A DNA stretch of 64,000 bases, from NCBI GenBank assembly GCA_043827405.1, contig JBDRPD010000053.1, forward strand, positions 20,826 through 84,825, in the 5' to 3' direction. Shown here one piece after another: positions 11,093 to 62,790 of this stretch. Positions within the stretch are counted from its first letter, which is position 1, and each line of letters opens with the position of its first letter. Origin of the DNA: Elusimicrobiota bacterium (GTDB taxonomy: Bacteria > Elusimicrobiota > Elusimicrobia > UBA1565). The notes beneath the pieces are model-generated. The model was given only the letters and a program-made list of their open reading frames with translations. It did no database searches and was not told the origin of the DNA. The translations under genes were made by a program, and so were the position numbers.

Positions 11093-14000
11093 ATGTTACA
11101 CAAGCGACTACTGCCGGCGCTTATTATCGCCCTGTTGATGCCCGGCCGGACGCCCGCGGCGTCCGCCGAACCGCAGCCCGCGGTGTGGCGCGGACATGCC
11201 GGCGGGGTGACTGCGGCGGTCTTCTCGCCCGACGGCGAAACCGTGCTGTCGGTCGGCAGCGACGACGCGCTCAAGCTGTGGGATGTGCGCACCGGTACGG
11301 TGCGCGCGAGCTGGGACGAGAGCGCGCTGGAGGTGGACGCCCTCGCCTTCACGCCGGACGGCAAGACGATCCTCGCGGCGGGAAGAGATCACTCCCTGCT
11401 GCTGCTCGACGCGGCGACCGGCGCCGAGCGCGCCGCGCTGCGCGGACACTACGGGGCGATCCGCGCCATCGCCCTGTCTCCCGACGGACAAACCGCGGCG
11501 ACGGCATCCTTCTACGGAGCGATCAAGCTCTGGGACCTGCGGACCAAAAGCGAGCTCGCGACCCTGCACCATGGCCCCGATGCCGGCGCGGTCTGTCTCG
11601 CCTTCTCGCCGGACGGGCGGCGCCTGGTCTCCGGCATGTGGCATAAGGTGCTCTGGGTATGGGACGTCGGCCGGCGCGAACGGATCGCGGTGCTCAAGGG
11701 GCATACCGGCCGCGTGCTGTCCGTCGCCTTCTCGCCGGACGGGAAAAAGCTCCTTTCCGGCGGCCGCGACACCACGCTCCGGCTGTGGGACGCGGACAGC
11801 GGCGCGGCGCTCGGAGTGTGGCGGGGACATACCAGCCATGTCAATTCCGTCGCCTTCTCGCCCGACGGCCGCACCGCGCTTTCGGGCGGCTCCGACTATA
11901 CGCTCAGGAAATGGGACACGGCGACGGGCCGGACGCTCGCCGTATGGCGCGGGCATCAGGGCGACGTGCGCAGCGTCGCCTTCTCCCCGGACGGCGCGCT
12001 CGCCGTCTCGACGAGCGAGGACCGCACGCTCTGGGTGTGGAAAACGGACGGCGCCGCGGGAGCGGCCGCGCCCTCAACGCCGGGCTTCACGCCCGTCCCG
12101 CCGGCGGGCGAAAATCCGGAAGCCTGGCTGGGCCGCCTGCTCTTTTTCGACCGCCGGCTTTCCGGCAACTCGAGCCTTTCCTGCGCCTCCTGCCATGACC
12201 CGCGGCGGGCCTTCACGGACGAGCAGGCGCTTTCCGACGGCTATCCCGATACGCTGTATTTCCGCAACACCCCCACGCTCATCAATGCCGCGAAGCAAAA
12301 GCACCTGTACTGGGACGGCCGCTTCCCCGGCGACGATATGCCGTCCCTCATCCGGGACCATATCTCGGAAGCGCACTTCATGAACGCCGACGGCCGGCTG
12401 CTCGTCGAGAAGCTCCGCCAGGCCCCCGGCTACGTTCAGCTGTTCCAGCAGGTCTACGGGGCGGAGCCCTCATACGGCAAGCTCCTCGAAGCGCTCACCG
12501 CCTTTGTCCGCACGCTCAACTCCGCCGCCGCCCCGTATGACCGGGACGCGCTGACGCCCGCCGCCCGCCGGGGCCTGGCGCTCTTCACCGGCGACGCCGG
12601 CTGCGCGCGCTGCCACCCCCCGCCCCGGTTTACCGATGGGATGCTGCACCGCCGCGGAGTTCCGGAAAACAGCGCCGTCTTCGCCCAGCCGCGCCGCCAC
12701 ATCTCGTTTCGACGCTTTTTCAAAATGCTCGGGGTCGACGACTACCCGGCGCTGCGCGCCGACCCCGGCCTCTATGCCGTCACCAAGCGCGCCGCGGACC
12801 GGGGCCGGTTCAAAACGCCGTCGCTGCGCGAGAGCGCGCGGACCGCGCCCTATATGCACAACGGCGTGTTTGCGACCCTCGCCGCGGCGGTCCGGCACGA
12901 GGATCCGCGCCTCAGCGACGGCCAGGTCGGAGATATCGTCGCCTTCCTCGAATCCCTTTCCAGCGCGACGCCGGCCTATGCGCCGCCCCTGCTGCCGGAA
13001 TTCGGCTTAAGAGATAAACGCCCCGCGGTTCCGGCGCCGGAGGCTCCCGCCCGCGCCGCGGCGGCGGCGCACGAGTTTCCCCCCTTGGCGCCGCTTCCCC
13101 CGGTCCCCGTACCCGAGGATAATCCGCTGACGCCGGAAAAGATCGCACTGGGCGGCATGCTGTTTCATGATTTTCGCATCGCGGGCGACGGCGAGACCTA
13201 CTGCATGGCCTGCCATGAGCCCGCCATGGGCTGGGGCGACAGCAACGACGTGTCGCAGGGACATGCGGGCTCCCTGGACTGGCGCAACACCCAGACCTTG
13301 CTTAACGCCGCCTACTATTCGAAGCTTAACTGGGACGGCGCCAAGATCAGCCTTGAGGAGCAGGCCCGCAGCGCCATCACCTCGAACCTCTCCGGCAACG
13401 GCGACATGGTCATGATCGAGGAGCGTCTGGCCCAGGTGCCGGAATTTGTCGAGCACTTCAAGCGGGCTTTCGGCATCGAGCGCCCGAACTTTGAGAGCGT
13501 GCTCAAGGCGCTGGCCTCCTTCATTCGCGCCGTTCCGCTGTCGCGCGGCGTACCCTTCGACGCCTACATGAAAGGCGATACCTCGGCGCTGTCCGCCGCC
13601 GCGGTGCGCGGCCGGCGGCTTTTCGCGGGCAAGGCCGGCTGCATCCAGTGCCACAACGGCGCCCTGGTCTCCGATCAGGACTTCCACGCGACCGGCGTCC
13701 CGGGAAATCCCGCCTTCGACCATATCGCGCTGCGCTTCCAGCATGCCATCCACGGGGTTCCGGAAGCGGTTTACCGCGACGCCGATGCCGATAGCGGACT
13801 ATACCTCGTTACCCAGCGCGCGGAGGACGCCGGCAAGTTCCGCACCCCGAGCCTGCGCGAGCTCAAGGTCACGGCGCCCTATATGCACAACGGCGTATTC
13901 GCGACGCTGGAGGAGGTCATCGAGTTCTACGATCAAGGCGGCGGCGCGACGCCCAACAAGAGCCCCCGCCTTAAGCCGCTCAAGCTCGCGCCGCAAGAGA

Positions 14001-14119
14001 AACAGGATCTGCTGGCCTTTCTGGAATCGCTCAGCGGAACGGAGACGCCGGCCGAGTACGCGATAGCGCCGGAGCCCGACTACATCACTTTCGACGGCCG
14101 CGGCCGCAGGGTCAAATGA
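11093..14119 (+). CDS. WD40 beta-propeller / tandem di-heme cytochrome c peroxidase (CcpA/MauG-like) fusion protein, paralog 1 of 10
   Basis: 1008 aa. Signal peptide MLHKRLLPALIIALLMPGRTPAASA. Seven WD40 repeats (GHxxxVxxVAFSPDG...LWD). CCP module 1: CASCH ... LYWDGRF ... HISEAHFMNADGRL ... CARCH ... PYMHNG. Pro/Ala-rich linker (PLAPLPPVPVPEDNPLTPEKI). CCP module 2: CMACHEPAMGWGD ... CIQCHNGALVSDQDFHATGVP ... PYMHNG. Confidence 0.9.
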   Translation: MLHKRLLPALIIALLMPGRTPAASAEPQPAVWRGHAGGVTAAVFSPDGETVLSVGSDDALKLWDVRTGTVRASWDESALEVDALAFTPDGKTILAAGRDHSLLLLDAATGAERAALRGHYGAIRAIALSPDGQTAATASFYGAIKLWDLRTKSELATLHHGPDAGAVCLAFSPDGRRLVSGMWHKVLWVWDVGRRERIAVLKGHTGRVLSVAFSPDGKKLLSGGRDTTLRLWDADSGAALGVWRGHTSHVNSVAFSPDGRTALSGGSDYTLRKWDTATGRTLAVWRGHQGDVRSVAFSPDGALAVSTSEDRTLWVWKTDGAAGAAAPSTPGFTPVPPAGENPEAWLGRLLFFDRRLSGNSSLSCASCHDPRRAFTDEQALSDGYPDTLYFRNTPTLINAAKQKHLYWDGRFPGDDMPSLIRDHISEAHFMNADGRLLVEKLRQAPGYVQLFQQVYGAEPSYGKLLEALTAFVRTLNSAAAPYDRDALTPAARRGLALFTGDAGCARCHPPPRFTDGMLHRRGVPENSAVFAQPRRHISFRRFFKMLGVDDYPALRADPGLYAVTKRAADRGRFKTPSLRESARTAPYMHNGVFATLAAAVRHEDPRLSDGQVGDIVAFLESLSSATPAYAPPLLPEFGLRDKRPAVPAPEAPARAAAAAHEFPPLAPLPPVPVPEDNPLTPEKIALGGMLFHDFRIAGDGETYCMACHEPAMGWGDSNDVSQGHAGSLDWRNTQTLLNAAYYSKLNWDGAKISLEEQARSAITSNLSGNGDMVMIEERLAQVPEFVEHFKRAFGIERPNFESVLKALASFIRAVPLSRGVPFDAYMKGDTSALSAAAVRGRRLFAGKAGCIQCHNGALVSDQDFHATGVPGNPAFDHIALRFQHAIHGVPEAVYRDADADSGLYLVTQRAEDAGKFRTPSLRELKVTAPYMHNGVFATLEEVIEFYDQGGGATPNKSPRLKPLKLAPQEKQDLLAFLESLSGTETPAEYAIAPEPDYITFDGRGRRVK

Positions 14120-17112
14120 AGCTGAGCTATATCCTCGCGTTGGTCCTGACCGCGGCCGCGACCGCCGAAGAGGCGCCGCCCGGCATGGTCCTGCGCGGAC
14201 ACACCGATGACGTCAGCGCCGCGGTGTTCACCCCGGACGGCGCCGCCATCCTCTCGGTCGGCGGCGACGACACTTTGCGCCTGTGGGACGCCGCGACCGG
14301 AGCGTCCCGCGCCGTTTGGAAAGCGCCGGAAGGCGAAGCGGATGATCTGGCCATAACACCGGACGGCCGCACCGCGCTCTTGGCCGGAGCGGACGGCGCC
14401 CTGGTCCTCTGGGACCTGACGGCCGGGCGCCGCCTCGCCGCGCTCACCGGCCATAAGGAGCATATCCGCTCGATCGCGCTGTCGCCCGACGGGAGGCATG
14501 CCGCCACCACGTCGTTCGCCGGCGACCTCATCCTGTGGGACATCACGGCGCGCAAGCTGCTCGCGGTCCTGCATCCCGGACCGGGCGCGGGCGCCGTCTC
14601 CGCCGCTTTCTCCCCGGACGGCCGGAAGCTGGTCACCGGGATGTGGCATAAGGTGATCTGGGTATGGGACGTCGCCCGACGCGCCCGCATCGCGGAGTGG
14701 CCGGGGCATCAGGCCCGCGTCCTCGCCGTCGCCTTCTCGCCGGACGGCTCACGGGTCCTTTCGAGCGGCCGCGACAATACCGTCCGGCTATGGGACGCGG
14801 AGAGCGGACAGCAGCTGGGAGCCTGGAAGGGACATGCCGGCAGCGTCAACGACGTAACCTTTTCACCGGACGGGAACCGGGCGCTGTCGGCGGGGGCCGA
14901 CGGTACGCTGCGGCTGTGGGACGCGGCGACGGGACGCGAACTCGCCGTCTGGCGGGGCCACCAGGCTCCCGTGCTGGAAGCGGCCTTCTCGCCGGACGGC
15001 AAGCGCGCGGTCTCGGCGAGCGAGGACGGAACGGTGCGTTTATGGGGCGACGCGCAAAGCCCTGAGCGCAGCGCGGGCGAGTACGCCGCGCCCGACGATG
15101 AAGCCGGCTTGGGCCGCCTGCTCTTCTTCGACCGCCGGCTGTCCGGAAACTCCGGCATCAGCTGCGCCACATGCCATATCCCTGAACAAGCCTACAGCGA
15201 CGGGCTGGCGCTGTCGGCGGGCTATCCCGATACCCGCTATTTCCGCAATACGCCGACCTTGCTCAATATCGCGGGGCAGAAGAATCTGTACTGGGACGGA
15301 CGGTTTTCATCCGCTGATCTGCCGTCGCTGATGCGCGATCACATCTCGGAAGCGCACTTCATGAACGCCGACGGCCGCCTGATCGTCGAAAAGCTGCGCC
15401 AAGCGCCCGGCTACGTGCGGGCCTTCCAGAAGGTCTACGGGAGCGAACCGTCCTACTCCCGCCTGCTCGACGCCCTTGGCGCCTATGTCCGCTCGCTGCA
15501 ATCCGCGCCGGCGCGCTATGACCTCTACCTGCGCGGCGACCCGACCGCCTTGCCGGCGGCGGCGCGCCGCGGCCTGGCGCTGTTCACCGGCGAAGCCGGC
15601 TGCGCGCGCTGCCACCGCGGGCCGCTGCTGACCGACGACAGCCTGCATGCCCGGCAGGTGCCGGAGAATCCGGAGATACTCAAGGATCCTCTGCGCAGCA
15701 TCACCTTCCGGCGCTTTTTCAAGCTGCTCGGGGTGGAAAACTACCAGCAGCTTAAACAGGACGTCGGGCTCTACGCCGTCAGCAAGCAGCCGCGCGACCG
15801 CGGGCGGTTCAAAACCCCGTCCCTGCGCGAGGTCGCGCGCACCGCGCCGTACATGCACAACGGCATATGCGAAACGCTCGACGAGGCGGTCGCCTTCGAG
15901 AACCCGAACCTGAGCAAGCGCCAGCGGCGCGACATCGTCGCCTTCCTCGAGACGCTCTCCAGCGAGACGCCGCCGGCGGCGGCGCCCTCTTTGCCGGAGT
16001 ATGCGCTGCTGAAGCTCGCCCGCGAAAGGCCGGCGGCGCGGCCGCAGCCGGCCGGCGGCGCGAAGCAGGCTCCGCCGCTCGCTCCTCTGCCGCCGGTACC
16101 GGTCCCCGAAGACAACCCCCTGACGCCGGTCAAAATAGAACTCGGCATCCGTCTGTTTCATGACCCGCGCCTGTCCGGAGACGGCCATACCCGCTGCATC
16201 ACCTGCCATGAGCCCGCGATGGGCTGGGGCGACGGCAGCGCGCTCGCCCAGGGACACCCGGGAACGCTGCATTGGCGCAATGCCCAGACCCTGCTCAACG
16301 CCGCCTACCATACCCGCCTGGAATGGGACGGCGCGTGGCCCAGCCTGGAGGAGCAGGCCCGTCACGCCATCACCTCCAACCTCAACGGCAACGGCGATCC
16401 GGTCATGATCGAGGAGCGCTTGGCGCAGTCCCCGGGCTATGTCGAGCTGTTCCGCCGGGCCTTCGGCGTCGAGCGCCCGAACTTCGAAGGCGTGCTCAAA
16501 GCGCTGGCGTCATTTTTCCGCGGCGTCCTGGTATCCAAGAACGTCCCGTTCGACAACTACGCCCGCGGCGACGCGGCGGCGCTCGACGCGGCCGCCCGGC
16601 GGGGACTGACGCTGTTTCAAGGCAAGGCCGGCTGCCTGCGCTGCCATAACGGCCCGCTGGTTTCCGACGGCGAGTTTCACGCCACCGGGGTGCCGCGCAG
16701 CGCCGCGTTCGACGAGGTTCCGCTGCGCCAGGTCGCCCTGCGCTATCAGCACGCGGTCCGCGGCGCCCCCGAAGAGATGTACCGCGCCGCGGGCTCCGAT
16801 CCCGGCCTGTATTTTATGACCCGGCGCGAGCTGGACATCGGCAAGTTCCGCACCCCGAGCCTGCGCGAGCTGAAATACACCGCGCCCTATATGCACAACG
16901 GCGTTTTCAACTCGCTCGCGGAAGTCGTCGACTTCTACGACCGGGGCGGCGGCGAGGCGGCAAACAAAACGCCGCTGCTGCGGCCGCTGAGCCTGACGCC
17001 GGGCGAGAAGCGCGACCTCATCGCCTTCCTCGAATCCTTGAGCGGCGACGAGATCGCGGTCGGCTACCCCATCACTCTGGGACCCTACTACGCGCCCGCG
17101 GAGGAACCGTGA
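14116..17112 (+). CDS. WD40 / tandem di-heme cytochrome c peroxidase fusion protein, paralog 2
   Basis: 998 aa. ATGA overlap with paralog 1. Signal peptide, 7 WD40 repeats. CATCH, CARCH, CITCH, CLRCH heme motifs and 2x PYMHNG. Same linker motif APLPPVPVPEDNPLTP. Confidence 0.9.
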   Translation: MKLSYILALVLTAAATAEEAPPGMVLRGHTDDVSAAVFTPDGAAILSVGGDDTLRLWDAATGASRAVWKAPEGEADDLAITPDGRTALLAGADGALVLWDLTAGRRLAALTGHKEHIRSIALSPDGRHAATTSFAGDLILWDITARKLLAVLHPGPGAGAVSAAFSPDGRKLVTGMWHKVIWVWDVARRARIAEWPGHQARVLAVAFSPDGSRVLSSGRDNTVRLWDAESGQQLGAWKGHAGSVNDVTFSPDGNRALSAGADGTLRLWDAATGRELAVWRGHQAPVLEAAFSPDGKRAVSASEDGTVRLWGDAQSPERSAGEYAAPDDEAGLGRLLFFDRRLSGNSGISCATCHIPEQAYSDGLALSAGYPDTRYFRNTPTLLNIAGQKNLYWDGRFSSADLPSLMRDHISEAHFMNADGRLIVEKLRQAPGYVRAFQKVYGSEPSYSRLLDALGAYVRSLQSAPARYDLYLRGDPTALPAAARRGLALFTGEAGCARCHRGPLLTDDSLHARQVPENPEILKDPLRSITFRRFFKLLGVENYQQLKQDVGLYAVSKQPRDRGRFKTPSLREVARTAPYMHNGICETLDEAVAFENPNLSKRQRRDIVAFLETLSSETPPAAAPSLPEYALLKLARERPAARPQPAGGAKQAPPLAPLPPVPVPEDNPLTPVKIELGIRLFHDPRLSGDGHTRCITCHEPAMGWGDGSALAQGHPGTLHWRNAQTLLNAAYHTRLEWDGAWPSLEEQARHAITSNLNGNGDPVMIEERLAQSPGYVELFRRAFGVERPNFEGVLKALASFFRGVLVSKNVPFDNYARGDAAALDAAARRGLTLFQGKAGCLRCHNGPLVSDGEFHATGVPRSAAFDEVPLRQVALRYQHAVRGAPEEMYRAAGSDPGLYFMTRRELDIGKFRTPSLRELKYTAPYMHNGVFNSLAEVVDFYDRGGGEAANKTPLLRPLSLTPGEKRDLIAFLESLSGDEIAVGYPITLGPYYAPAEEP

Positions 17113-20100
17113 TCCGCCTGCTGGCCGCGCTGCTCGCGCTCGCCGTCTCGGCCGCGGCCGCCCCGCGGCCGCCGCTGCTCGCCACCTGGCGCGGCCTGAC
17201 CAACGACGTCTACGACGTTGCGTTCTCGCCGGACGGCCGCCGGGTGCTGTCCGCCAACAAGGACGGCACGCTGAAGCTGTGGGACGTCGCGACCGGCCGC
17301 GTCGTTGCCGCGTGGGAGGGGCACCGTTCGGAAGTCATCGCCGCCGCCTTCTCGCCGGACGGCCGCACCGCCGTCTCCGGCAGCGAAGACCGGACGTTGA
17401 AGTTATGGGACACAGCCACCGGCAAAGAGCTGGCGACTCTGGGCGCGCACGACGACTTCATCCTCAAAGTCGACATCTCGCGCGACGGAAAAACCGCCGC
17501 CTCGGTATCGTTTGACGGGCTCATCAAGCTGTGGGATCTGGACGCCCGCCGCGAAATCGCGGTCCTCGGCGGCAGCCGGACCGCCCGCGCCCTGGACGCC
17601 TCGTTCTCGCCGGACGGCGAGCGGATCATCGCGGCGCAGTGGGACAAGACGCTGCGGCTTTGGGACGTGAAGACGCGGCGCCTGCTGGCGACCTGGCGGG
17701 GGCACAAGAACCAGGTGCTGACGGCGGCGTTCTCGCCCGACGGCGGCAAGGTTATCTCGGGCAGCCGCGACAATACCCTGCGCGTCTGGAACGCCGCCGA
17801 CGGCCGGACGCTCGCCGTTCTGCGCGGACACCAAAGCCACGTGACCGCCGCCGCCTTCTGCCCGGACAGCCGCACCGCGCTCTCGGCGGGGATGGACTAC
17901 TCGGTACGCAAGTGGGACACCCGAACGGGCGCCGAGCTGGAAGTCTGGAGCGGGCACGACGACGCGGTCTACGCGCTCGCCGTCTCGGCGGACGGGCGGC
18001 TCGCCGTTTCGGCGGGGGAAGACGACACCCTGCGCCTATGGGACATCACGGGCGGCGCCGACGCCGCCGCCTTCACCGCCCCCGTCTACCCCGCCCCGGT
18101 CTACCGTCCGGCGCCGGGCGAAAGCGGCGAGGAGTGGCTCGGGCGCATGCTCTTTTTCGATGACCGGCTCACCGGCGACAACAACACGAACTGCGCCTGG
18201 TGCCATAATCCGCAGCAGGCCTTCACCGACGGCGGCGCCCTCTCCTCGGGCTACCCCGGCTTCTTTTTCCGCAACACGCCGACGCTCATCAACGCCGCGG
18301 GGCAGAAGCACCTGTACTGGGACGGCCGCTTTTCCGCCGACGACCTGCCCTCGCTCATCCGCGACCATATCTCCGAGGCGCACTTCATGAACGCCGACGG
18401 CCGTCTGATCGTGGAAAAGCTGCGCCAGGCGCCCGGCTACGTACAGGCCTTTCAGGAAGTCTACGGCGCCGAACCCGGCTACGGCCGGTTGCTCGATGCT
18501 CTTGCCGCCTTCGTCCGTTCCCTAAAGTCCGGGAAGTCGCCCTACGACCTGGACGCGCTGACGCCCGCCGCCCGGCGCGGCCGCGCGCTCTTCACCGGCG
18601 AGGGCGGCTGCGCGGACTGTCATAGCGGACCGCTCTTCACCGACGGGGAGTTCCATGACCGCGGGGTGCCGGAAAATCCCCTGATCTTCGGCGACTATCT
18701 GCGCCAGGTCTCCTTCCGGCGCTTTTTTAAAGCACTGGGAGTGAAGGGCTACCAGGACCTCAAACGCGATGTCGGGCTCTTCGCCGTCACCAAGCGGGAA
18801 GACGATCGCGGAAAGTTCCGCACCCCGAGCCTGCGCGAGGTCGCGCGCACCGCGCCCTACATGCACAACGGGATATTCCCGACGCTCGACGCGGCGGTCG
18901 CGCATGAAAACCCGAAGCTCACGCCGGAGGAGCGCGGCGACATCGCGGCGTTCCTGGAAGCGCTCAGCAGCGAGACGCGGACCGTCGAGGCGCCGCCGCT
19001 TCCGGCGTATGCGCTGCGTGAACCGCCCCGGCGGAAGGCCGCTGCTACCGGGCCGCGCGAACGGGCCGCGGCGCCCAGCGCGCCGCCGCCTCTGGCTCCG
19101 CTGCCGGCCGTGCCGGTGCCCGCCGATAATCCCTTGACCGCGGCCAAGATCGAGCTGGGCAAGATGCTGTTCTTCGACCCCCGCTTCTCGGGCAGCGGCG
19201 ACTCCGGCTGCGTCAGCTGCCATGAGCCGGCCACCGGCTGGGGCGACGCCAGCGCCCTGGCGCGGGGCTACGAAGGCACGCTGCACTGGCGCAACACCCA
19301 GAGCCTGCTCAACGCCGCCTATTACACCAAGCTCGAATGGGACGGCGCCTGGCCGAGCCTGGAGGAGCAGGCGCGCGGCGCCATCACCTCCAACCTCAAC
19401 GGCAACGGCGATCCCGAGATGATCGAAGAGACGCTGGCGCAGATTCCGCTCTATATCGACCTGTTCAAAAAGGCTTTCGGCGTCGACCGGCCGAACTTCG
19501 AGGGCGCGCTCAAAGCGCTGGCCTCGTTTCAACGCGCGGTTCCCATATCCCGCGACACGCCCTTGGACCGCAGCCTGCGGGGCGACAAGTCGGCGCTCTC
19601 CCGGGCGGCCCGGCGCGGACGGCGGCTGTTCGAAGGCAAGGCCGGCTGCCTGCGCTGCCATAACGGCGCGCTGGCCTCGGACCAAGGCTTCCATGCCACC
19701 GGCGTCCCCCAGAGCCCGGATTTCCGCATCACCCCGCTGCGCCAGGTGACCCTGCGCTACCAGCACGTCATCCGCGGCGTACCCGAGGAAGTCTACCGCG
19801 ACGCCGATACGGACCCGGGCCTCTATTTGACGACGCACCGGGAAGAGGATAGCGGCAAATTCAGGACGCCGAGCCTGCGCGAGCTCAAGCACACCGCGCC
19901 CTATATGCATAACGGCGCCTTCCGCACGCTCGAGGAAGTCGTAGAGTTCTACGACCAAGGCGGCGGCGCGACCCCCAACAAGAGCCCGCTGCTGCGGCCG
20001 CTCGGACTTTCTCCGCGCGAGAAGCGGGACCTCATCGCTTTCCTGCTGGCGCTCTCGGGCGAAGAAATAATCGTCGACCATCCCGAGAAGGTCGGCCCGT

Positions 20101-23005: not shown

Positions 23006-23012
23006 AAACCGC

Positions 23013-34925: not shown

Positions 34926-34933
34926 AAAGCGGC

Positions 34934-35365: not shown

Positions 35366-35450
35366 GATGAGCCTCTTTGGTGAAGAATCAAATCCAGTAC
35401 AGAATAGACGAAGTCTTTCAACGCAAGCTTAACACGGTCTTAATTCCTTC

Positions 35451-36173: not shown

Positions 36174-36253
36174 AAGCCCCTCCCGGACGCAAGAGTTCCT
36201 CCTTCGCGTCGGCACACTCTTTGTATCATATCTTCCGGCCGCATTCCGAAGCC

Positions 36254-39200
36254 ATGCCCAGCATTCACGCCGCCATAACGGCCTTTCTGTTCGCACTGCT
36301 CGCGCCCCGCACCCTGGCGGCGGAGAGCGCGCTTATCGGCACGCTGGAGGGCCATACCGATCACGCCGTCAACGCCTATTTCACGCCGGACGGGAAACAG
36401 TTGCTGACCATCGGCGAAGACCATACGGTCCGCCGCTGGGACGCCGCCTCCGGCGCCGAGCTCGTCGTCCACAGATTCCACGATCCCGTTTCAGGCCTGT
36501 TCTATAAGGACGGCTACAAAGCCGCGGCCTTCCCGGAGCCCCACCGCCTGCAGATATGGAACCTCGCGACGGAAAAGCTGTTCGCCGACATCGAGGACTA
36601 CAACGGCAAGATCCGGACTTTTCTTCTCGCACCGGATGGGCGCACCGCCGCGCTGCTGTCCTGGCAGGGAGAGGTTTCGCTGTGGGACCTGGACAAGCTC
36701 GACAGAATTGCGGTCCTCAACAGCGACCAGAAAGAGCGCGCCTGGTCCATTTCCCTCTCCCCGGACGGCCGGCACCTGTTCGCCGGCGCCGGCGAGAAGG
36801 CGCATGTCATCATGCGGTGGGAGCTCGGCACCGGCAAGCTGCTGAGCTCCTGGACCGGACATACCAACAAAGTCCGCGACATCGCCTTCACTCCCGACGG
36901 CGCCAAGGCGCTCTCCGCCAGCGCGGACCATACGCTGCGGCTATGGGACATTTCCTCCGGCAAGACGCTGGCCGTCTGGAAGGGGCATACCAGCCAGATC
37001 TGGGCCGTCGACATCTCTCCCGACGGGAAGCGCGCGATATCGGCCGGCGCGGACTACGCCGTACGGCTATGGGAGGTGGAGACCGGACGTCAGCTGGCGG
37101 CCTGGTGGGGACATCAGGCCATCGTCCGCGACGTCACGTTCTCCCCCGACGGCACGCTGGCGGCCTCCGCGAGCGAGGACCATACGGTAAAACTCTGGAA
37201 CGTCGAGGGACACGCGCGCATCGCCGCCTACCCCATACCTGAGCCGCCGCCCCCGCTCCCCGCGGGGCCGGGCACGCCCGAAGAGCGGCTGGGGCGCATG
37301 CTGTTTTTTGATCAGCGGCTTTCCGGCGACACCCACCGGGACTGCGCCGTCTGCCACGCTCCCGAACTGGCCTTCGCGGACGGCCTGGAGCTGTCTTTGG
37401 GCGCGCAGAACGTGCTGTATTTCCGCAACACCCCTTCGCTCTACAACCTCGACGAGCTGAAGCTCCTTTATTGGGACGGCCGCTTTCCCGCCGACGACCT
37501 GCCATCGCTGATCCGCGATCACATTTCCGAGGCGCATTTCATGAACGCCGACGGCCGCCTTATCGTGGAAAAGCTGCGCCAGGCGCCCGGCTATATCCGC
37601 GCCTTCCAGGAGGTATACGGCGAGGAGCCTTCCTATACCAAGGTCCTCGCCGCGCTGACCGCCTTCGTCCGTTCCATCAAATCCGGCGCGTCGCCCTATG
37701 ACCGGTATTTGGCCGGCGACGGCGACGCCCTGTCTCCCGCCGCCCGTCGAGGCTACGAGCTGTTCCTGGGCGATGCCGGATGCGCCCCATGCCATAGCGG
37801 CCCCATGCTCACGGACGGCAAGCTGCACGACCGCGGAGTGCCGGAGAACGAAGAGATCTACGATTCGCCCATGCGCCTCATATCGCTGCGCCGCTTCTTC
37901 AAGCTCCTCGGCGTAGAGGACTACGCCAATCTCCACCGCGACGTGGGCTTCTACGCTATATCGAAAAAACAGGAGGACATGGGCCGGTTCAGGACGCCCA
38001 GCCTGCGTGAAGTCGCACGTACGGCGCCGTACATGCATAACGGCCTGCTGCCTTCGCTCGATGACGCCGTTGCCCACCAGAATCCGCGGCTGAGCCCGAG
38101 CGAGCGAAAAGACATCACGGCTTTCCTGGAATCTCTCACCAGCGCCACCACCGCCTATGTCTCCCCGCCGCTTCCGCGTTATGAACTGCGCCGTCGTGCC
38201 GCGGACAAGAGAACCGCGGCCGCCGCCGCTGCGGCAGAGGAACCGAAGTCCGCCTTTCCGCCCCTGGGCCCGCTGCCCCCGCCGCCGGTCCCTGCGGACA
38301 ACCCGCTGACCGAGGAAAAAATCGAGCTCGGCAAGTTCCTGTACTTCGACAAACGTCTCTCGGGCAACGGCTACACGTCCTGCGACACCTGCCACGAGCC
38401 GCCCAAAGGCTGGGCCGACGGCAGCGACCTGGCGCAAGGCTACCAGGGCACGCTGGACTGGCGCCATGCGCAGACCTTGCTCAACGCCGCCTATTACACG
38501 AAGCTGGAATGGGACGGCGGCCAGCCGACCCTCGAGCAGCAGGCCAACGGAGCGATCACCTCGAATATTTCGGCCAACGGCGATCCGGAGATGATCGAGG
38601 AGCGGCTCGCCGCCACCCCGGAGTACGTCGCCATGTTCAAAAAGGCCTTCGGCGCCAAGCGCCCGACCTACGAGAACGCGCTGAAGGCGATCGCATCTTT
38701 TGTCCGCGCCGTTCCGGTATCGCGCAACGTGCCGTTCGACAAGGGCGCTCTTTCCCCCGCCGCCCGGCGCGGCCGCAAGCTGTTCGAAGGCAAAGCCGGC
38801 TGCATCCAGTGCCACAACGGGCCGCTGGTCTCCGCTCAGGGATTTCACGCCACCGGCGTCCCCCGCAACCCCGGCCTGGACCACCTGCTGCTGCGGCAGA
38901 TCACCGTGCGCTTTATGCATTCCAGCCGCGGCGTGCCGGAGGACATCTACCGGAACGCGGACTCCGATCCGGGCCTATACCTCAACACCCTGCGCCAGGA
39001 GGATATCGGTAAATTTCGCGCCCCGAGCCTGCGCGAGCTAAAGTACACCGCGCCGTATATGCATAACGGCATATTCCCGACGCTGGAAGCGGTGGTGGAC
39101 TTTTACAATAAGGGCGGAGGCGAGACGCCCAACAAGACCCCGCTCCTTAAACCCCTGGAGCTCAACGCCGGCGAGAAACAGGACCTGATCGCCTTTCTGC

Positions 39201-39331
39201 TGTCTCTCAGCGGCGACGAAGTGCTGATCACGCCGCCGCTCATTCCGCGCTTCCACCCCGGTCATGGAGACGACGATGACGAGAAGGAGGACCCGCATGC
39301 GGGCCGGGACGATGACCATAATGCGCATTGA
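36254..39331 (+). CDS. WD40 / tandem di-heme cytochrome c peroxidase fusion protein, paralog 9 (divergent propeller, acidic His-rich C-terminal tail)
   Basis: Start at MPSIHAAITAFLFALLAPRTLAAE (signal peptide) within ORF 36221..39331. Fewer canonical WD repeats at the N-terminus. CAVCH, CAPCH, CDTCH, CIQCH and 2x PYMHNG. C-terminal tail HPGHGDDDDEKEDPHAGRDDDHNAH. Confidence 0.85.
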   Translation: MPSIHAAITAFLFALLAPRTLAAESALIGTLEGHTDHAVNAYFTPDGKQLLTIGEDHTVRRWDAASGAELVVHRFHDPVSGLFYKDGYKAAAFPEPHRLQIWNLATEKLFADIEDYNGKIRTFLLAPDGRTAALLSWQGEVSLWDLDKLDRIAVLNSDQKERAWSISLSPDGRHLFAGAGEKAHVIMRWELGTGKLLSSWTGHTNKVRDIAFTPDGAKALSASADHTLRLWDISSGKTLAVWKGHTSQIWAVDISPDGKRAISAGADYAVRLWEVETGRQLAAWWGHQAIVRDVTFSPDGTLAASASEDHTVKLWNVEGHARIAAYPIPEPPPPLPAGPGTPEERLGRMLFFDQRLSGDTHRDCAVCHAPELAFADGLELSLGAQNVLYFRNTPSLYNLDELKLLYWDGRFPADDLPSLIRDHISEAHFMNADGRLIVEKLRQAPGYIRAFQEVYGEEPSYTKVLAALTAFVRSIKSGASPYDRYLAGDGDALSPAARRGYELFLGDAGCAPCHSGPMLTDGKLHDRGVPENEEIYDSPMRLISLRRFFKLLGVEDYANLHRDVGFYAISKKQEDMGRFRTPSLREVARTAPYMHNGLLPSLDDAVAHQNPRLSPSERKDITAFLESLTSATTAYVSPPLPRYELRRRAADKRTAAAAAAAEEPKSAFPPLGPLPPPPVPADNPLTEEKIELGKFLYFDKRLSGNGYTSCDTCHEPPKGWADGSDLAQGYQGTLDWRHAQTLLNAAYYTKLEWDGGQPTLEQQANGAITSNISANGDPEMIEERLAATPEYVAMFKKAFGAKRPTYENALKAIASFVRAVPVSRNVPFDKGALSPAARRGRKLFEGKAGCIQCHNGPLVSAQGFHATGVPRNPGLDHLLLRQITVRFMHSSRGVPEDIYRNADSDPGLYLNTLRQEDIGKFRAPSLRELKYTAPYMHNGIFPTLEAVVDFYNKGGGETPNKTPLLKPLELNAGEKQDLIAFLLSLSGDEVLITPPLIPRFHPGHGDDDDEKEDPHAGRDDDHNAH

Positions 39332-42329
39332 GCGCTGGGGCCTCCTGGCCTGCGCGCTGCTTCTCTCCCGGCCCGCCGCCGCTGCCAGCGGACCGCTGCT
39401 CGCCGTCTTGGAAGGCCATACCGACCTGGTCCGGCAGGCGGTCTTCACCCCGGACGGCACCCAGGTCCTGTCGATCGGCAACGACCATGCGGTGCGCCGA
39501 TGGGACGCCGCCGCAGGCCGCGAGCTCTCGGCCTTTCTCTCCGCGGACCCTGTGCTGAGGGTATTCGCGCAAGGAGCGCCGAAATTCGCCGCCTACACCC
39601 CGGATTACGCCATCATCATGCGCGATCTGACCTCGGGCAAGCGCCTGGCCGCTCTGCGCCGGCTCAACGACGAAACGGAAGCCGTCGCGCTGACCCCGGA
39701 CGGCCGCACCGCGGCGACGCTCTCCTACGAGGGCGAGGTCATCCTTTGGGATCTCAAGAAGGAACGCCGGCTCGCGGCGCCGGAAGCCAACGGCTCCGCC
39801 ATCGCCTTTTCACCGGACGGCGGCAGCCTGCTGGTCGGCAAGCGCGACCATACCCTGCAGCTCTATTCTCTGCCGGGAGAACCGGCGGCGCCGGCCTGGC
39901 GCGGCCACCGCGGCGAGATCCTTGCCGTCGCCTTCTCGCCGGACGGCGGAAAAGCGCTCTCCGGCGCGCGCGACAACACCCTCCGCCTCTGGGACGTGAA
40001 GACCGGAGCGGCGCTCGGCGTCTGGCGCGGCCATACGAGCCACGTCCTCGCTTTGGCGTTCTCCCCGGACGGGCGCCGGGCGCTTTCCGGCGGAGCGGAC
40101 TACACCGTCCGGCTATGGGACGCCGCGGCGGGCCGGGAGCTCGCCGTCTGGTGGGGACACCAGGGAGCGGTCCGCGACGTGGCTTTCTCTCCCGACGGAA
40201 AGCGCGCCGTTTCCGCCGGCGAGGACCGGAGGCTCATGCTGTGGGACGCACGGGACGGCGCGGTGAGCAGCCGGCCCGGCGCCGGCGAGCAGGCGGCTCT
40301 TCCCCCCGGTCCGGGAACGCCCGAAGAACGGCTCGGCCGCCTGCTGTTTTTCGACAAGCGGCTGTCCGGCGACGAGGACGCCGACTGCGCCTTGTGCCAT
40401 AACCCCGCCACAGCCTATACCGACGGCCTGCCGCTGGCCGAAAGCTATACCGCGCTCTACTTCCGCAATACGCCGACCCTGCTCAATCTCGCGGCGCAAA
40501 AGCACCTGTACTGGGACGGCCGCTTCCCGGCCGACGACCTGCCCTCGCTTATCCGCGACCACATATCCGAAGCGCATTTCATGAACGCCGACGGCCGCCT
40601 GATCGTGGAAAAACTGCGCCAGGCGCCCGGCTACGTGCACGCCTTCAAGGAAGTCTACGGCGGCGAGCCGTCTTACTCCAGGATTCTTGCAGCTCTCAGC
40701 GCCTTCGTCCGGTCGCTGAAATCCGGCGCCCCGGCGGACGTTCTGACGCCCGCGGCGCGGCGCGGCCGGGACCTGTTCAACGGCGAGGCCGGCTGCGCCG
40801 GCTGTCACGCCGGCTCCGGCTTCACCGACGGCAAGCTGCACGCCCGCAAGGCTCCGCCCAATAAAGAAATTCTCCGGGAACCGCTGCGCCGCATCGCCCT
40901 GCGGCGTTTTTGCAAGGTCCTGGGCATCGAGAACTATGCCGAGGTACGCGAGGACCCGGGTCTCTACGCCGTCACCAAGCGCCGGGAGGATAGCGGCAAG
41001 TTCAAAACGCCCGGCCTGCGGGAAGTCGCCCGCACCGCTCCCTACATGCACAACGGCTCGATCCGCAAGCTGGCAGACGCGGTCAAGCATGAAAATCCCC
41101 GGCTCAGCCGGCGCGAGCGAAAGGACATCGTCGCTTTTCTCGAAACGCTGTCCAGCGAGACGCCGCGATTTGATCCGCCGCTCGTGCCGCGCTACGCGGT
41201 CCAACCCCGGGACCTCCCCCCCGCGGCGGGAGCGGACTCGACCTGGGACGACGCCCCGGCGCCCGCACCCATCCGGGCCCGGGACTACCCGCCGCTTGGC
41301 CCGCTCCCGCCGGTCCCGGTCCCGGAGGACAACCCGCTCACCGACGAGAAAGTCCGGCTGGGAAAGCAGCTGTTTTTCGACGTGCGCCTGTCCGGCTCCC
41401 TGAGCCGTTCCTGCGCCTTCTGCCATGAGCCGGCGCTGGGCTGGGGAGACGGCAGCGACCTCTCGCAGGGCTACCGCCGGATGCTGCACTGGCGCAACTC
41501 CCAGACGCTGTTAAACGCCGCCTATTACAGCAAGCTGGAATGGGACGGCGCCTGGCCGAGCCTGGAGGAGCAGGCGCGCGGAGCGATCACCTCAAACATC
41601 AACGGCAACGGCGACCCGGCCACGATCGAGGAGCGCTTGGCCGAATCGCCGGAGTATGTGCGGATGTTCAAGCGGGCTTTCGGCGTGCAGCGGCCGAACT
41701 TCGAGAGCGTACTCAAGGCGCTCGCCTCCTTCCAGCGGGCGATCCCGATCTCGCGCAACGTCCCGTTCGATCAAGGAGCCCTCTCTCCCGCCGCGCGGCG
41801 CGGCCGCGAGCTGTTTGCCGGCAAGGCGGGCTGCATCGCCTGCCATAATGGACCGCTGGCCTCCGATCAGGGCTACCATGCCACCGGCGTCCCGCGCAAT
41901 CCGGCATTTGATCACATCGCCCTGCGCCGGATCGCCCTGCGCTTCCAGCATGTGACCCGGGGAGTTCCTGAGGAGGTGTTCCGGCGCGCCGAAACGGATC
42001 CGGGGCTGTATCTAAATACGCTGCGCAAGGAAGATAGCGGGAAGTTCCGGACCCCGAGCCTGCGTGAGCTCAAGTATACCGCGCCCTATATGCATAACGG
42101 CGTATTCCCGACCCTGCAGAAAGTAATAGACTTTTACGACCAGGGCGGCGGAACGGCGGACAATAAAAGCCCGCTGCTCAGATCGCTGGGGCTGACCGCG
42201 GCGGAGAAGCTGGACCTGATCGCCTTTCTGGAAGCGCTCTCGGGCGAGGAAATCATGGTCACCGCGCCGGACGCGCTGGGACCGCACATAACGGCGACGG
42301 GACGCGCCGCGGATACGCCGCACCATTAA
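39321..42329 (+). CDS. WD40 / tandem di-heme cytochrome c peroxidase fusion protein, paralog 10
   Basis: ORF 39264..42329. The probable start is MRIERWGLLACALLLSRPAAAASGP (signal peptide) at about 39312-39321, overlapping the end of paralog 9 by about 10-20 nt. CALCH, CAGCH, CAFCH, CIACH and 2x PYMHNG. Confidence 0.85.
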   Translation: MRIERWGLLACALLLSRPAAAASGPLLAVLEGHTDLVRQAVFTPDGTQVLSIGNDHAVRRWDAAAGRELSAFLSADPVLRVFAQGAPKFAAYTPDYAIIMRDLTSGKRLAALRRLNDETEAVALTPDGRTAATLSYEGEVILWDLKKERRLAAPEANGSAIAFSPDGGSLLVGKRDHTLQLYSLPGEPAAPAWRGHRGEILAVAFSPDGGKALSGARDNTLRLWDVKTGAALGVWRGHTSHVLALAFSPDGRRALSGGADYTVRLWDAAAGRELAVWWGHQGAVRDVAFSPDGKRAVSAGEDRRLMLWDARDGAVSSRPGAGEQAALPPGPGTPEERLGRLLFFDKRLSGDEDADCALCHNPATAYTDGLPLAESYTALYFRNTPTLLNLAAQKHLYWDGRFPADDLPSLIRDHISEAHFMNADGRLIVEKLRQAPGYVHAFKEVYGGEPSYSRILAALSAFVRSLKSGAPADVLTPAARRGRDLFNGEAGCAGCHAGSGFTDGKLHARKAPPNKEILREPLRRIALRRFCKVLGIENYAEVREDPGLYAVTKRREDSGKFKTPGLREVARTAPYMHNGSIRKLADAVKHENPRLSRRERKDIVAFLETLSSETPRFDPPLVPRYAVQPRDLPPAAGADSTWDDAPAPAPIRARDYPPLGPLPPVPVPEDNPLTDEKVRLGKQLFFDVRLSGSLSRSCAFCHEPALGWGDGSDLSQGYRRMLHWRNSQTLLNAAYYSKLEWDGAWPSLEEQARGAITSNINGNGDPATIEERLAESPEYVRMFKRAFGVQRPNFESVLKALASFQRAIPISRNVPFDQGALSPAARRGRELFAGKAGCIACHNGPLASDQGYHATGVPRNPAFDHIALRRIALRFQHVTRGVPEEVFRRAETDPGLYLNTLRKEDSGKFRTPSLRELKYTAPYMHNGVFPTLQKVIDFYDQGGGTADNKSPLLRSLGLTAAEKLDLIAFLEALSGEEIMVTAPDALGPHITATGRAADTPHH

Positions 42330-62780: not shown

Positions 62781-62790
62781 GCACCCAACT

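What the first reader, a model, noticed from the sequence alone, without database searches (positions are those of the whole stretch)
11093..42329. Tandem array of ten paralogous secreted WD40-propeller / double di-heme cytochrome c peroxidase fusion proteins (about 40 c-heme sites)
Ten consecutive plus-strand genes of 960-1036 aa each share one architecture. Each has a Sec signal peptide and a 7-bladed WD40 propeller with canonical GH...VAFSPDG...LWD repeats. This is followed by two complete bacterial di-heme peroxidase (CcpA/MauG-family) modules. Each module has two CxxCH motifs, the LYWDGRF and HISEAHFMNADGRL blocks, and the PYMHNG Met-ligand motif. A conserved Pro-rich linker (PLAPLPPVPVPxDNPLTxEKI) joins the modules. 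This is 4 hemes per protein and about 40 across the array. Single CCP/MauG genes are common. A WD40 fusion, an internal tandem duplication of the CCP module, and a 10-fold tandem amplification are all unusual, and I do not recognise this architecture as a described family. One inferred model is a periplasmic peroxide-reducing or protein/peptide-oxidising (MauG/MbnH-like) enzyme family in which the propeller acts as a diversifying substrate- or partner-binding module. Another is a high-capacity periplasmic electron sink.
Basis: partly seen in the sequence, partly recalled or inferred. Interest (0 to 1): 0.95.

Follow-up and report, generated by a model that had tools for sequence, protein, structure and literature searches.

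The report
WD40-fused iodate-reductase-type tetrahaem peroxidase array
Ten neighbouring genes each encode a secreted protein that joins a seven-bladed WD40 propeller to a fused pair of di-haem enzymes of the kind found beside iodate reductases; the fused haem core is common in public genomes, but the propeller fusion and its multi-copy arrays are rare and undescribed.

Summary
There are ten plus-strand genes (960-1036 aa). Each has a signal peptide, a 7-bladed WD40 propeller, two PF03150 di-haem modules and exactly 4 CxxCH motifs, 40 in all.

The interpretation needs three corrections.
1. The double module is not a local internal duplication. It is a collinear fusion of the two distinct peroxidase genes of iodate-reductase islands: module A is idrP2-like and module B is idrP1-like. 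Fused 700-900 aa forms are widespread in metagenomes and MAGs from several phyla; the unfused gene pair also occurs in cultured isolates. The contig that holds the window also carries a propeller-less fused copy next to IdrA/IdrB-like genes.
2. PYMHNG is not a Met-ligand motif, because MauG has it too. Module B carries the MauG Tyr294-equivalent Tyr in all ten copies, which makes it MauG-type. Module A has Glu, Met or Gln at that position.
3. The array is interrupted between copies 8 and 9 by a minus-strand gene for a secreted heavy-metal-binding-domain protein.

The WD40 fusion is rare: a single 50%-identity cluster, seen in five assemblies. In all four assemblies whose context could be read it lies in tandem arrays. 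The paralogues are old (about 70% nt identity), and propeller top-face positions vary most.

Best reading: these are periplasmic IdrP-derived, MauG-type haem enzymes whose propellers dock paralogue-specific partners. The chemistry is untested. I class it as a new variant of a known kind, of moderate to high interest.

The parts
11093..14119 (+). Copy 1 (1008 aa). Signal peptide aa 1-25 (nt 11093-11167). WD40 propeller aa ~28-320 (nt 11174-12052). Module A (idrP2-like di-haem) aa ~335-640 (nt 12095-13012). Module B (idrP1-like di-haem) aa ~665-985 (nt 13085-14047).
   Evidence: CxxCH at aa 364, 504, 704, 850; PYMHNG at 586 and 929; Tyr946 is the MauG Tyr294 equivalent. The ORF start at 11093 gives a signal peptide that NCBI's shorter 993-aa start lacks.
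14116..17112 (+). Copy 2 (998 aa), same architecture
   Evidence: CxxCH at aa 350, 496, 694, 840.
17109..20126 (+). Copy 3 (1005 aa)
   Evidence: CxxCH at aa 362, 501, 701, 847.
20123..23005 (+). Copy 4 (960 aa), the most divergent copy, with a shortened C-terminus
23013..25979 (+). Copy 5 (988 aa)
25976..28957 (+). Copy 6 (993 aa). Module A has Met at the Tyr294-equivalent position.
28954..31977 (+). Copy 7 (1007 aa), the copy that was modelled. Module A has Met at the Tyr294-equivalent position.
31974..34925 (+). Copy 8 (983 aa), the last gene of the first tightly packed block
   Evidence: A terminator-like hairpin lies at 34917-34934.
34934..35365 (-). 143-aa secreted Cys-rich protein with a C-terminal heavy-metal-binding domain (HMBD), inserted between copies 8 and 9
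   Evidence: PF19335 scores 36.4 bits against a cut-off of 23.6.
35451..36296 (-). 281-aa ORF with a C-terminal (D/E)KGC-repeat tail. No family match, and it is uncertain whether this is a real gene.
36221..39331 (+). Copy 9 (1036 aa from TTG; 1025 aa from the ATG at 36254). Module A has Gln at the Tyr294-equivalent position.
39264..42329 (+). Copy 10 (1021 aa as an ORF; the real start is probably 39276 or later)
   Evidence: A terminator-like hairpin lies at 42430-42445.
9837..11033 (-). GDSL/SGNH hydrolase-like + TPR protein, transcribed divergently from copy 1. The same divergent neighbour (49% identity) lies upstream of the array on contig L002.
42531..43505 (+). Stand-alone secreted 7-repeat WD40 propeller (324 aa), about 40-50% identical to the fused propellers
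43496..44878 (-). Membrane-anchored GDSL-like protein (460 aa), one of four ~460-aa paralogues in the window (the others at 54189-55586, 55596-56957 and 56954-58348). A 58%-identical homologue lies between two double-CCP genes on L085.

Best explanation
**What it is (shown)**
- Each gene encodes a Sec-exported protein made of a 7-bladed WD40 propeller followed by a collinear fusion of two different di-haem modules of the bCCP/MauG superfamily.
- These modules are the counterparts of the two 'peroxidase' genes of iodate-reductase islands: first gene = idrP2-like = module A, second gene = idrP1-like = module B.
- The organism also has a propeller-less fused copy directly upstream of IdrA-like molybdoenzyme and Rieske genes, on the same contig.
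- The ten propeller-bearing genes are old, diverged paralogues of that enzyme. They form one clade with the few other known propeller fusions.

**How it most likely works (inferred)**
- In the periplasm, a peroxide-level oxidant reacts at a five-coordinate haem. This would be H2O2, or possibly hypoiodous acid or a related by-product of the Idr/Aio-like enzyme.
- The oxidising equivalents are relayed through the haem, inter-haem Trp and haem chain. Module B has the His/Tyr ligation typical of MauG, MbnH and BthA.
- They are discharged onto a protein partner held by the propeller.
- The ten propellers differ most on their predicted binding face, so each copy would serve a different partner. The logic is MauG/MbnH-like 'oxidant-using', not bulk H2O2 scavenging.

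**Confidence.** The anatomical and evolutionary identification is secure (about 0.9). The propeller-as-docking-site idea is moderately supported. The chemistry and the partners are not shown.
For: - **Architecture and haem sites:**
- **Module identity:**
  - Module A scores 251 bits on average against the first CCP gene of Idr-type pairs and 168 against the second. Module B scores 304 against the second and 225 against the first.
  - The module-specific signatures are shared with those unfused genes.
  - Modules A and B of one protein are only 39% identical.
- **Idr context of relatives:**
  - About 50 of 80 GTDB loci have CCP + CCP + Rieske + AioA/IdrA-like Mo subunit.
  - This matches the idrP2-P1-B-A layout and the taxa in PMC8692401 and PMC10989891.
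  - Fused forms lie next to Rieske and Mo genes in L004, L005, L086 and L084.
- **Same organism:** P0122 (701-aa fused, no propeller) and P0225 (917-aa IdrA/AioA-like) are on the same 194,892-bp contig. They are adjacent, followed by a TAT-Rieske gene, in an identical Logan contig.
- **Phylogeny:** the propeller fusions form one clade. It is sister to P0122/P0123/P0124/P0128 and nested among Idr-linked pairs and fusions.
- **MauG-type ligand:** MauG Tyr294 aligns without gaps to the invariant Tyr of module B. His/Tyr versus His/Met at the E haem is the published discriminator (PMC11892367).
- **Conserved core residues:** the inter-haem Trp and the Ca-site Asn are conserved in both modules.
- **Partner binding:**
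  - Top-face entropy is 1.85 bits against 1.21 and 1.32 elsewhere.
  - Propellers are 47% identical against 64-69% for the haem modules.
  - IdrP1/P2 co-migrate with IdrA in native gels, so the ancestors already work bound to a protein (PMC10149662).
  - An ankyrin-repeat gene precedes the unfused homologue in L084.
- **Long-term maintenance of the array:** arrays are present in four independent assemblies. P0005, from another MAG, nests among the window's paralogues.
Against: - No partner or substrate gene has been identified, and no activity data exist for any member, IdrP1/P2 included.
- The distal residues that canonical CCPs and MauG use (Gln, Pro, Glu) are only partly kept. Module B keeps Gln but not Pro or Glu at the aligned positions. 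Module A keeps none and has its own RDHISEAHFMN motif. The haem chemistry may therefore differ from both models.
- Module A has lost the Tyr ligand, and the residue there varies (Glu x7, Met x2, Gln x1). Its sixth ligand and its role are unknown.
- Higher variability of top-face positions could reflect relaxed constraint and not specialisation. The positions were assigned from the repeat register, not from coordinates.
- The published view of IdrP1/P2 is H2O2 detoxification.
- The array is not adjacent to the Idr-like genes within the 64-kb window.
Confidence: 0.4

Rival explanations
1. **Plain detoxifying peroxidases.** The proteins reduce H2O2, or hypoiodous acid or other by-products of the Idr/Aio-like molybdoenzyme, to harmless products using electrons from periplasmic cytochromes, as proposed for IdrP1/P2. 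The propeller only anchors or oligomerises the enzyme, or docks different electron donors. The ten copies provide dosage or condition-specific isoforms.
For: - The closest characterised context is the idr island, where IdrP1/P2 are assigned H2O2 detoxification (PMC8692401, PMC10149662).
- An Idr-like cluster lies on the same contig.
- Other members of the fused family carry an N-terminal class I cytochrome c domain where the propeller sits here. That is what a built-in electron donor would look like.
- Two copies (G6, G7) have Met at the module A ligand position, as canonical peroxidases do.
Against: - The detoxifying role of IdrP1/P2 is a proposal and is described as 'still unclear'.
- Module B, and both unfused Idr-linked genes, carry the MauG-type Tyr. 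In the characterised enzymes this goes with poor peroxidase activity.
- Dosage does not explain ten copies kept at 48-64% identity across lineages, with the propeller face diverging fastest.
- The catalytic Glu of canonical CCPs is missing at the aligned position.
Confidence: 0.3
2. **Electron-transfer or respiratory modules.** The tetrahaem core works mainly as a wire that passes electrons between periplasmic partners, for example to or from the Idr/Aio-like enzyme or other oxidoreductases. The propeller selects the partner, and there is no peroxide chemistry. This includes the first reader's 'electron sink'.
For: - There are four c-haems per protein.
- IdrP1/P2 co-purify with IdrA.
- Module A has lost both the Tyr and the canonical distal residues and has two conserved His in the distal loop (H423, H428), so it might be six-coordinate.
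- A multihaem cytochrome is encoded at 215-1618.
Against: - The whole CCP fold, the inter-haem Trp and the Ca-site Asn are conserved in both modules. That is unnecessary for a simple wire.
- Forty haems are far too few to store charge.
- No membrane or quinol-oxidising partner lies in the array.
Confidence: 0.1
3. **Assembly artefact, recent amplification or decaying pseudogene array.**
For: The source is a MAG contig, and tandem repeats are a classic cause of misassembly.
Against: - The copies are only about 70% identical in DNA.
- All ten reading frames are intact with every haem motif present.
- There are no remnants in the gap.
- Arrays of 3-4 copies occur on three unrelated metagenome contigs.
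Confidence: 0.02

Closest known systems
IdrP2 / IdrP1, the two di-haem 'cytochrome c peroxidases' of the iodate reductase cluster idrP2-P1-B-A (Pseudomonas sp. SCT, Denitromonas sp. IR-12, Azoarcus sp. DN11)
   Same: - Module A matches the first gene of Idr-type pairs best, and module B the second. The order is collinear and the module-specific signatures are shared.
- Both are Sec-exported.
- Fused versions lie directly next to Rieske and IdrA-like genes in several lineages, and in this organism.
   Different: - Here the two are one polypeptide with a WD40 propeller in front.
- There are ten copies in an array.
- They are not adjacent to the Mo enzyme.
- Module A has lost the Tyr that both unfused genes keep.
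MauG / MbnH / BthA (MauG-type di-haem enzymes)
   Same: - Module B has the Tyr aligned to MauG Tyr294, the PYMHNG block, the inter-haem Trp and the Ca-site Asn.
- The best NCBIfam hits are the MbnH and MauG models.
- MbnH (6e1c) is among the top matches in the PDB.
- MauG acts on a protein substrate and MbnH is thought to; BthA's activity is unknown.
   Different: - Identity is only about 25-35%.
- The TIGR03791 score is below its cut-off. TIGR04039 passes only as the sum of two modules.
- There are no mau or mbn genes nearby.
- MauG's Pro107 and Glu113 are not conserved at the aligned positions.
- The protein has two modules plus a propeller in one chain.
Canonical bacterial cytochrome c peroxidases (CcpA, MacA, Nitrosomonas CCP)
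   Same: The fold family is the same (PF03150), with two CxxCH per module. These are among the top matches in the PDB (E 1e-30 to 1e-40).
   Different: - The E haem is not His/Met.
- The distal Gln-Pro-Glu set is incomplete.
- There is no conserved distal His loop.
Hydrazine synthase beta-gamma (a beta-propeller subunit fused to a CCP-like di-haem subunit in some anammox bacteria)
   Same: It is a precedent for a beta-propeller joined to a CCP-fold di-haem module. Weak hits were found to NF052341 and NF052342 and to 5c2v_C.
   Different: Scores are far below the cut-offs (63 bits against 1250). The propeller type, the haem environment and the genomic context all differ.
Triheme YhjA, and the pentahaem members of this same fused family (N-terminal cytochrome c + CCP)
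   Same: An accessory domain is added at the N-terminus of the CCP core.
   Different: The accessory domain there is a redox domain. Here it is a non-redox protein-interaction propeller.

Membership tests
bCCP/MauG superfamily (Pfam PF03150) | Match to the CCP_MauG profile above the gathering score, for each module | tested here: met
   Two stretches per protein, 233-270 bits against a cut-off of 25.6.
bCCP/MauG superfamily (Pfam PF03150) | Two CxxCH haem-attachment motifs per module | tested here: met
   Exactly four per protein, at conserved positions.
bCCP/MauG superfamily (Pfam PF03150) | Inter-haem Trp and Ca-site Asn | tested here: met
   W407 and N392 in module A and W747 and N732 in module B align to Trp116 and Asn101 of Geobacter CcpA and to the same residues in MacA. 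They are invariant or nearly so across the family.
Canonical bacterial cytochrome c peroxidase (CcpA type) | E haem with His/Met ligation (Met about 17 residues after the PYxHxG Pro) | tested here: not met
   Module B has Tyr in 10/10 copies. Module A has Glu x7, Met x2 and Gln x1.
Canonical bacterial cytochrome c peroxidase (CcpA type) | Distal Gln ... Pro ... Glu set at the peroxidatic haem | tested here: not met
   Module B keeps Gln757, but has Ala and Ser/Asn at the Pro and Glu positions. Module A has Leu, His and Phe there.
MauG-type di-haem enzymes (MauG, MbnH, BthA) | E haem with His/Tyr ligation (MauG Tyr294 position) | tested here: met
   Met for module B. An ungapped alignment puts MauG residue 294 on the Tyr of the [ED][FY]Y[DN] motif in all ten copies. 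Not met for module A.
MauG (TIGR03791) / MbnH (TIGR04039) equivalogs | Score above the curated cut-off | tested here: inconclusive
   MauG scores 360 against a cut-off of 444, so it is not met. MbnH scores 368 against 363, but that is the sum of two modules, so each module alone is below the cut-off.
MauG / MbnH systems | Cognate substrate gene nearby (mauA/mauB, or mbnP) | tested here: not met
   Pfam scans of every sizeable ORF in the window found none.
MauG-type di-haem enzymes | Formation of a bis-Fe(IV) state with H2O2 | not testable with these tools
   This needs near-IR or Mossbauer spectroscopy of the purified protein.
IdrP1/IdrP2 of iodate reductase islands | Sequence closest to the CCP pair encoded next to idrB/idrA, with module-specific signatures | tested here: met
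IdrP1/IdrP2 of iodate reductase islands | Encoded in the idrP2-P1-B-A cluster | tested here: not met
   There is no molybdopterin or Rieske gene in the 64-kb window. The propeller-less paralogue P0122 on the same contig does sit next to IdrA- and IdrB-like genes.
IdrP1/IdrP2 of iodate reductase islands | Two separate ~40-kDa di-haem proteins | tested here: not met
   They are fused into one chain with a propeller. Fused forms also exist inside idr-type clusters (L004, L005, L086).
WD40 beta-propeller (PF00400) | Seven blades of four strands with GH...WD repeats | tested here: met
Hydrazine synthase beta-gamma fusion (NF052342) | Score above the curated cut-off | tested here: not met
   63.5 bits against a cut-off of 1250.

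The most novel reading that the evidence does not exclude
The array is a panel of ten MauG-like protein-oxidising enzymes, each with its own WD40 substrate receptor. On this reading it is a periplasmic system that uses peroxide (or hypohalous oxidant from an Idr-like enzyme) to install oxidative modifications or cross-links on ten different target proteins. By extension, the IdrP1/IdrP2 'peroxidases' of iodate reducers would be MauG-type oxidant-using enzymes and not H2O2 scavengers.
Probability: 0.2. Interest if true: 0.85.

Novelty: new variant of a known kind. Interest (0 to 1): 0.6.

Why it matters
- **A rare fusion.** Di-haem CCP/MauG enzymes are studied as single-domain proteins. Only MauG and MbnH have a known or proposed protein substrate. 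Here the haem machinery is covalently tied to a canonical protein-interaction propeller and multiplied ten-fold with diverging binding faces. That points to protein partners and offers a way to find them: pull-downs with ten ready-made baits.
- **A link to iodate reductases.** The core is the fused form of IdrP2 and IdrP1, whose function in iodate respiration is still called unclear. Both Idr-linked genes carry the MauG-type Tyr. This raises a testable doubt about their assignment as H2O2 scavengers.
- **An annotation gap.** Fused tetra- and pentahaem 'double CCP' proteins are common in public data, where they are named only 'cytochrome c peroxidase' or left unnamed. My searches of the held literature, which cover open-access papers and bioRxiv only, found no description of them.

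Tried and rejected
1. **First AlphaFold2 job** with a 61-row alignment failed. A 15-row alignment worked.
2. **Foldseek against the PDB** was swamped by WD40 propellers and gave nothing on the haem modules. The AFDB library was not available.
3. **The exhaustive representative search** with a full-length copy was dominated by giant multi-propeller proteins. It still showed only one full-architecture representative in the top 150. Fusions scoring below about 630 bits would be hidden.
4. **The genome-collection scan** returned no locus covering the propeller part, and the source genome itself was not among the hits. The taxonomic spread of the fusion therefore rests on protein-database hits alone.
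5. **The 1.3-kb gap** was searched for a decayed eleventh copy by tblastn and for RNA families with Rfam. Neither found anything.
6. **Sigma-70 promoter scan** of 34-43.6 kb found no sites.
7. **Propeller as a cis substrate carrying a special modified residue.** I considered this, but the only invariant propeller residues are the ordinary structural GH/WD/Asp positions and there are no conserved extra Cys.
8. **Hydrazine-synthase-like function** was rejected on scores and context.
9. **The sixth ligand of the module A E haem** could not be identified from sequence. No model coordinates are returned, so haem geometry could not be checked.
10. **Exact-sequence look-ups** of P0005 and P0122 found no record. 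P0122's context was recovered indirectly through P0225.
Full report
**1. Observation**

The window holds ten plus-strand ORFs of 960-1036 aa between 11093 and 42329.
- All ten match PF03150 (CCP_MauG) in two separate stretches (E 1e-70 to 1e-81) and PF00400 (WD40) in 4-7 stretches.
- Each has exactly four CxxCH motifs, two PYMHNG motifs and an N-terminus with the look of a Sec signal peptide.
- An AlphaFold2 model of copy 7 (mean pLDDT 73.4, pTM 0.69) has 28 strands before residue 312, i.e. seven four-stranded blades. Its best structural match is a prokaryotic seven-bladed WD40 domain, 5yzv, with TM 0.93 on the target.
- Copies 1-8 are packed with 4-bp start/stop overlaps, or a 7-bp spacer.

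The array is not strictly uninterrupted. Between copy 8 and copy 9 lie 1.3 kb of lower G+C (0.59). This stretch has a minus-strand gene for a 143-aa secreted, Cys-rich protein with a heavy-metal-binding domain (PF19335, 36.4 bits) and a further 281-aa minus-strand ORF with a (D/E)KGC-repeat tail. Terminator-like hairpins lie at the stop of copy 8 and after copy 10. I therefore infer two transcription units.

**2. Not an artefact**

- The copies are 48-64% identical in protein and about 70% in DNA, 74% at most.
- All frames and haem motifs are intact.
- The same architecture occurs in tandem on three unrelated metagenome contigs: L001 (at least 4 copies), L002 (3) and L003 (3).
- P0005, from another MAG, nests among the window's paralogues in a distance tree. 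The duplications are therefore old and have been maintained.

**3. What the haem part is**

A search with the CCP-CCP region alone found more than 100 full-coverage relatives at 45-56% identity.
- One group is 700-750 aa with four CxxCH motifs.
- The other is 850-900 aa with a fifth CxxCH, in an N-terminal class I cytochrome c domain.

The hits span Planctomycetota, Dehalococcoidia, Alpha-, Beta- and Gammaproteobacteria (including cultured Roseibium, Ruegeria, Dinoroseobacter and Photobacterium), Binatia, Lindowbacteria and Rokubacteria.

I clustered the neighbours of the 80 best loci. About 50 have the layout CCP (~370 aa, 2 haems), CCP (~385 aa, 2 haems), Rieske (~190 aa), AioA/IdrA-like molybdopterin subunit (~891 aa). 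This is the idrP2-P1-B-A iodate-reductase cluster, and the taxa match those reported for it (PMC8692401, PMC10989891).

The modules correspond to the two genes in order:
- Module A scores better against the first gene of such pairs (251 bits on average, against 168 for the second).
- Module B scores better against the second gene (304 against 225).
- The peculiar module A block (RD[HM]I[ST]EAH[FT]MN.DGRL) and the module B block (RNSQT..N.AY..LFW.G..SLE.QA.SA...AGNG) are present in the respective unfused genes.
- Modules A and B of one protein are only 39% identical.

The 'double CCP' is therefore a collinear gene fusion of two long-diverged partners, not a local duplication. Fused forms lie next to Rieske and Mo genes in L004, L005, L086 and L084.

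**4. The same organism has the parent system**

The database names the source as an NCBI MAG, 'Elusimicrobiota bacterium', on a contig of 194,892 bp. That same contig carries two further genes outside the window:
- P0122, a 701-aa fused double CCP without a propeller.
- P0225, a 917-aa AioA/IdrA-like large subunit.

An identical Logan contig shows their arrangement. The tail of P0122 is followed after 13 bp by P0225, and then by a 177-aa TAT-signal Rieske protein.

In the tree, the propeller fusions form a single clade. It is sister to P0122/P0123/P0124/P0128 and nested among Idr-linked pairs and fusions.

On L084, a truncated WD40 gene lies divergently next to an ankyrin gene, a double-CCP gene and an IdrA-like gene. 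It is 53% identical, in register, to the propeller of copy 3.

**5. Haem ligands: the main correction**

MauG has the same PYMHNG block. An ungapped alignment of module B with MauG chains places chain residue 294, the known Tyr294 ligand, on the Tyr of the [ED][FY]Y[DN] motif, which is present in all ten copies.
- The Met ligand of Geobacter CcpA aligns to that same position.
- His/Tyr against His/Met at this haem is the published discriminator between MauG-type and canonical enzymes (PMC11892367; PMC6405878).
- Module B is therefore MauG-type by this criterion.

Module A has Glu in seven copies, Met in copies 6 and 7, and Gln in copy 9, in perfect register (AFEN against AFYN).
- Most propeller-less relatives have Tyr in both modules: A in 90/115 and B in 109/115.
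- Both unfused Idr-linked genes also have Tyr: 36/37 and 34/35.
- The loss in module A is shared with the sister group P0122-P0128, so it predates the propeller fusion.

Both modules keep the inter-haem Trp and the Ca-site Asn. Neither keeps the full distal Gln-Pro-Glu set of CcpA and MauG.

NCBIfam ranks the MbnH and MauG models first, but without a convincing pass of either cut-off.

**6. The propeller**

- The propellers are the most diverged part: 47% mean identity, against 64% for module A and 69% for module B.
- I used the GH/PDG/WD register of the seven blades to assign positions. Those expected on the top, ligand-binding face have a mean entropy of 1.85 bits among the ten paralogues. 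Strand cores have 1.21 and bottom loops 1.32.
- Blades 5-7 are better conserved than blades 1-4.
- This is what paralogue-specific partners would give, but relaxed constraint is not excluded.
- A stand-alone secreted propeller of the same kind follows the array at 42531-43505.

**7. Rarity**

- Of 5.8 billion clustered proteins, full-architecture hits are the ten window proteins, P0005, P0009, P0012, P0013 and P0015. P0126 is a truncated further example.
- In the exhaustive search of 1.84 billion 50%-identity representatives, only one full-length representative (P0013) appears among the top 150. More distant fusions could be hidden below about 630 bits.
- My searches of the held open-access papers and preprints found no paper describing a WD40-CCP fusion or a fused IdrP.

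**8. Recurrent neighbours**

- A GDSL/SGNH-like + TPR gene is transcribed divergently from copy 1. Its 49%-identical homologue holds the same position on L002.
- A 58%-identical homologue of the window's ~460-aa membrane-anchored GDSL-like paralogues lies between two double-CCP genes on L085.
- The meaning of these associations is unknown.

**9. Mechanism**

Shown: the proteins are exported. Each has a propeller plus an IdrP2-like and an IdrP1-like di-haem module. Module B has the MauG-type Tyr. The family descends from, and coexists with, an Idr/Aio-like cluster.

Inferred: a peroxide-level oxidant reacts at a haem, and the oxidising equivalents are passed to a partner docked on the propeller, with ten copies serving ten partners. 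I put this at about 0.4.

The main rival, at about 0.3, is the conventional detoxifying role proposed for IdrP1/P2, with the propeller as anchor or donor-docking site. [quoted passage not shown] A pure electron-wire role (0.1) and an artefact (0.02) are less likely.

**10. Verdict**

- The tetrahaem core is a common, merely unnamed, fused form of the iodate-reductase peroxidase pair.
- The new elements are the WD40 fusion, its conserved multi-copy arrays and the paralogue-specific ligand changes in module A.
- I class it as a new variant of a known kind, interest 0.6.

Noticed in passing
Loci L006-L071 (first and second CCP genes of idr-type clusters): Both CCP genes encoded next to Rieske and IdrA-like genes carry Tyr at the MauG Tyr294 position (36/37 and 34/35). 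They lack the canonical distal Gln-Pro-Glu set. By the published ligand criterion, the 'peroxidases' of iodate-reductase islands therefore look MauG-type. The Idr papers I read do not mention this.
   Followed up: partly
window 34934-35365 (-) and 35451-36296 (-): Two minus-strand ORFs lie inside the array between copies 8 and 9. One is a 143-aa secreted Cys-rich protein with a C-terminal HMBD heavy-metal-binding domain. The other is a 281-aa ORF ending in (D/E)KGC repeats with no family match. A metal link, as with MbnH/MbnP and copper, is conceivable but untested.
   Followed up: partly
window 45911-50473 (+): A 1520-aa protein has a signal-peptide-like N-terminus, two WD40 propeller regions, CARDB/NEW3 Ig-like domains and a C-terminal caspase (Peptidase_C14) domain. 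Its propellers are only about 27% identical to those of the array.
   Followed up: no
window 9837-11033, 43496-44878, 54189-55586, 55596-56957, 56954-58348 (all -): Five GDSL/SGNH-hydrolase-like genes. Four are ~460-aa paralogues, 52-60% identical, with an N-terminal membrane anchor, and three of these are in tandem. Homologues lie next to double-CCP genes on L002 and L085, so the association recurs.
   Followed up: partly
window 42531-43505 (+): A stand-alone secreted 7-repeat WD40 protein lies just after the array. It is as similar to the fused propellers (~40-50%) as they are to each other, in effect an eleventh propeller without haem modules.
   Followed up: partly
window 5028-6221 (+); L001 10814-11770 (-): An AAA_14/DUF4143 ATPase gene lies near the array both in the window and on the independent contig L001. 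The two are only 31% identical, so this may be coincidence.
   Followed up: no
window 215-1618 (-) and 1390-2844 (-): A 5-CxxCH multihaem cytochrome (c554/c7/MtrC-like hits) lies next to a B12-binding radical SAM gene. The two ORFs overlap by about 230 nt as listed, so one of the starts is probably wrong.
   Followed up: no
window 11093-11140: The public annotation of copy 1 (993 aa, starting MPGRTP...) begins 15 codons downstream of the ATG at 11093 and so lacks the signal peptide that the longer ORF provides. The longer start is more plausible.
   Followed up: partly
window 58405-63957: A peptidase S58 (DmpA-like) gene, a 707-aa protein with two D-Ala-D-Ala-ligase/ATP-grasp regions, and two tandem T2SSE-type secretion ATPases. 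They have no evident connection to the array.
   Followed up: no
L084 682-1596 (+): An ankyrin-repeat protein gene overlaps by 4 bp the start of the propeller-less double-CCP gene (P0123), which is followed by an IdrA-like gene. This is a second kind of protein-interaction repeat associated with this enzyme clade.
   Followed up: no
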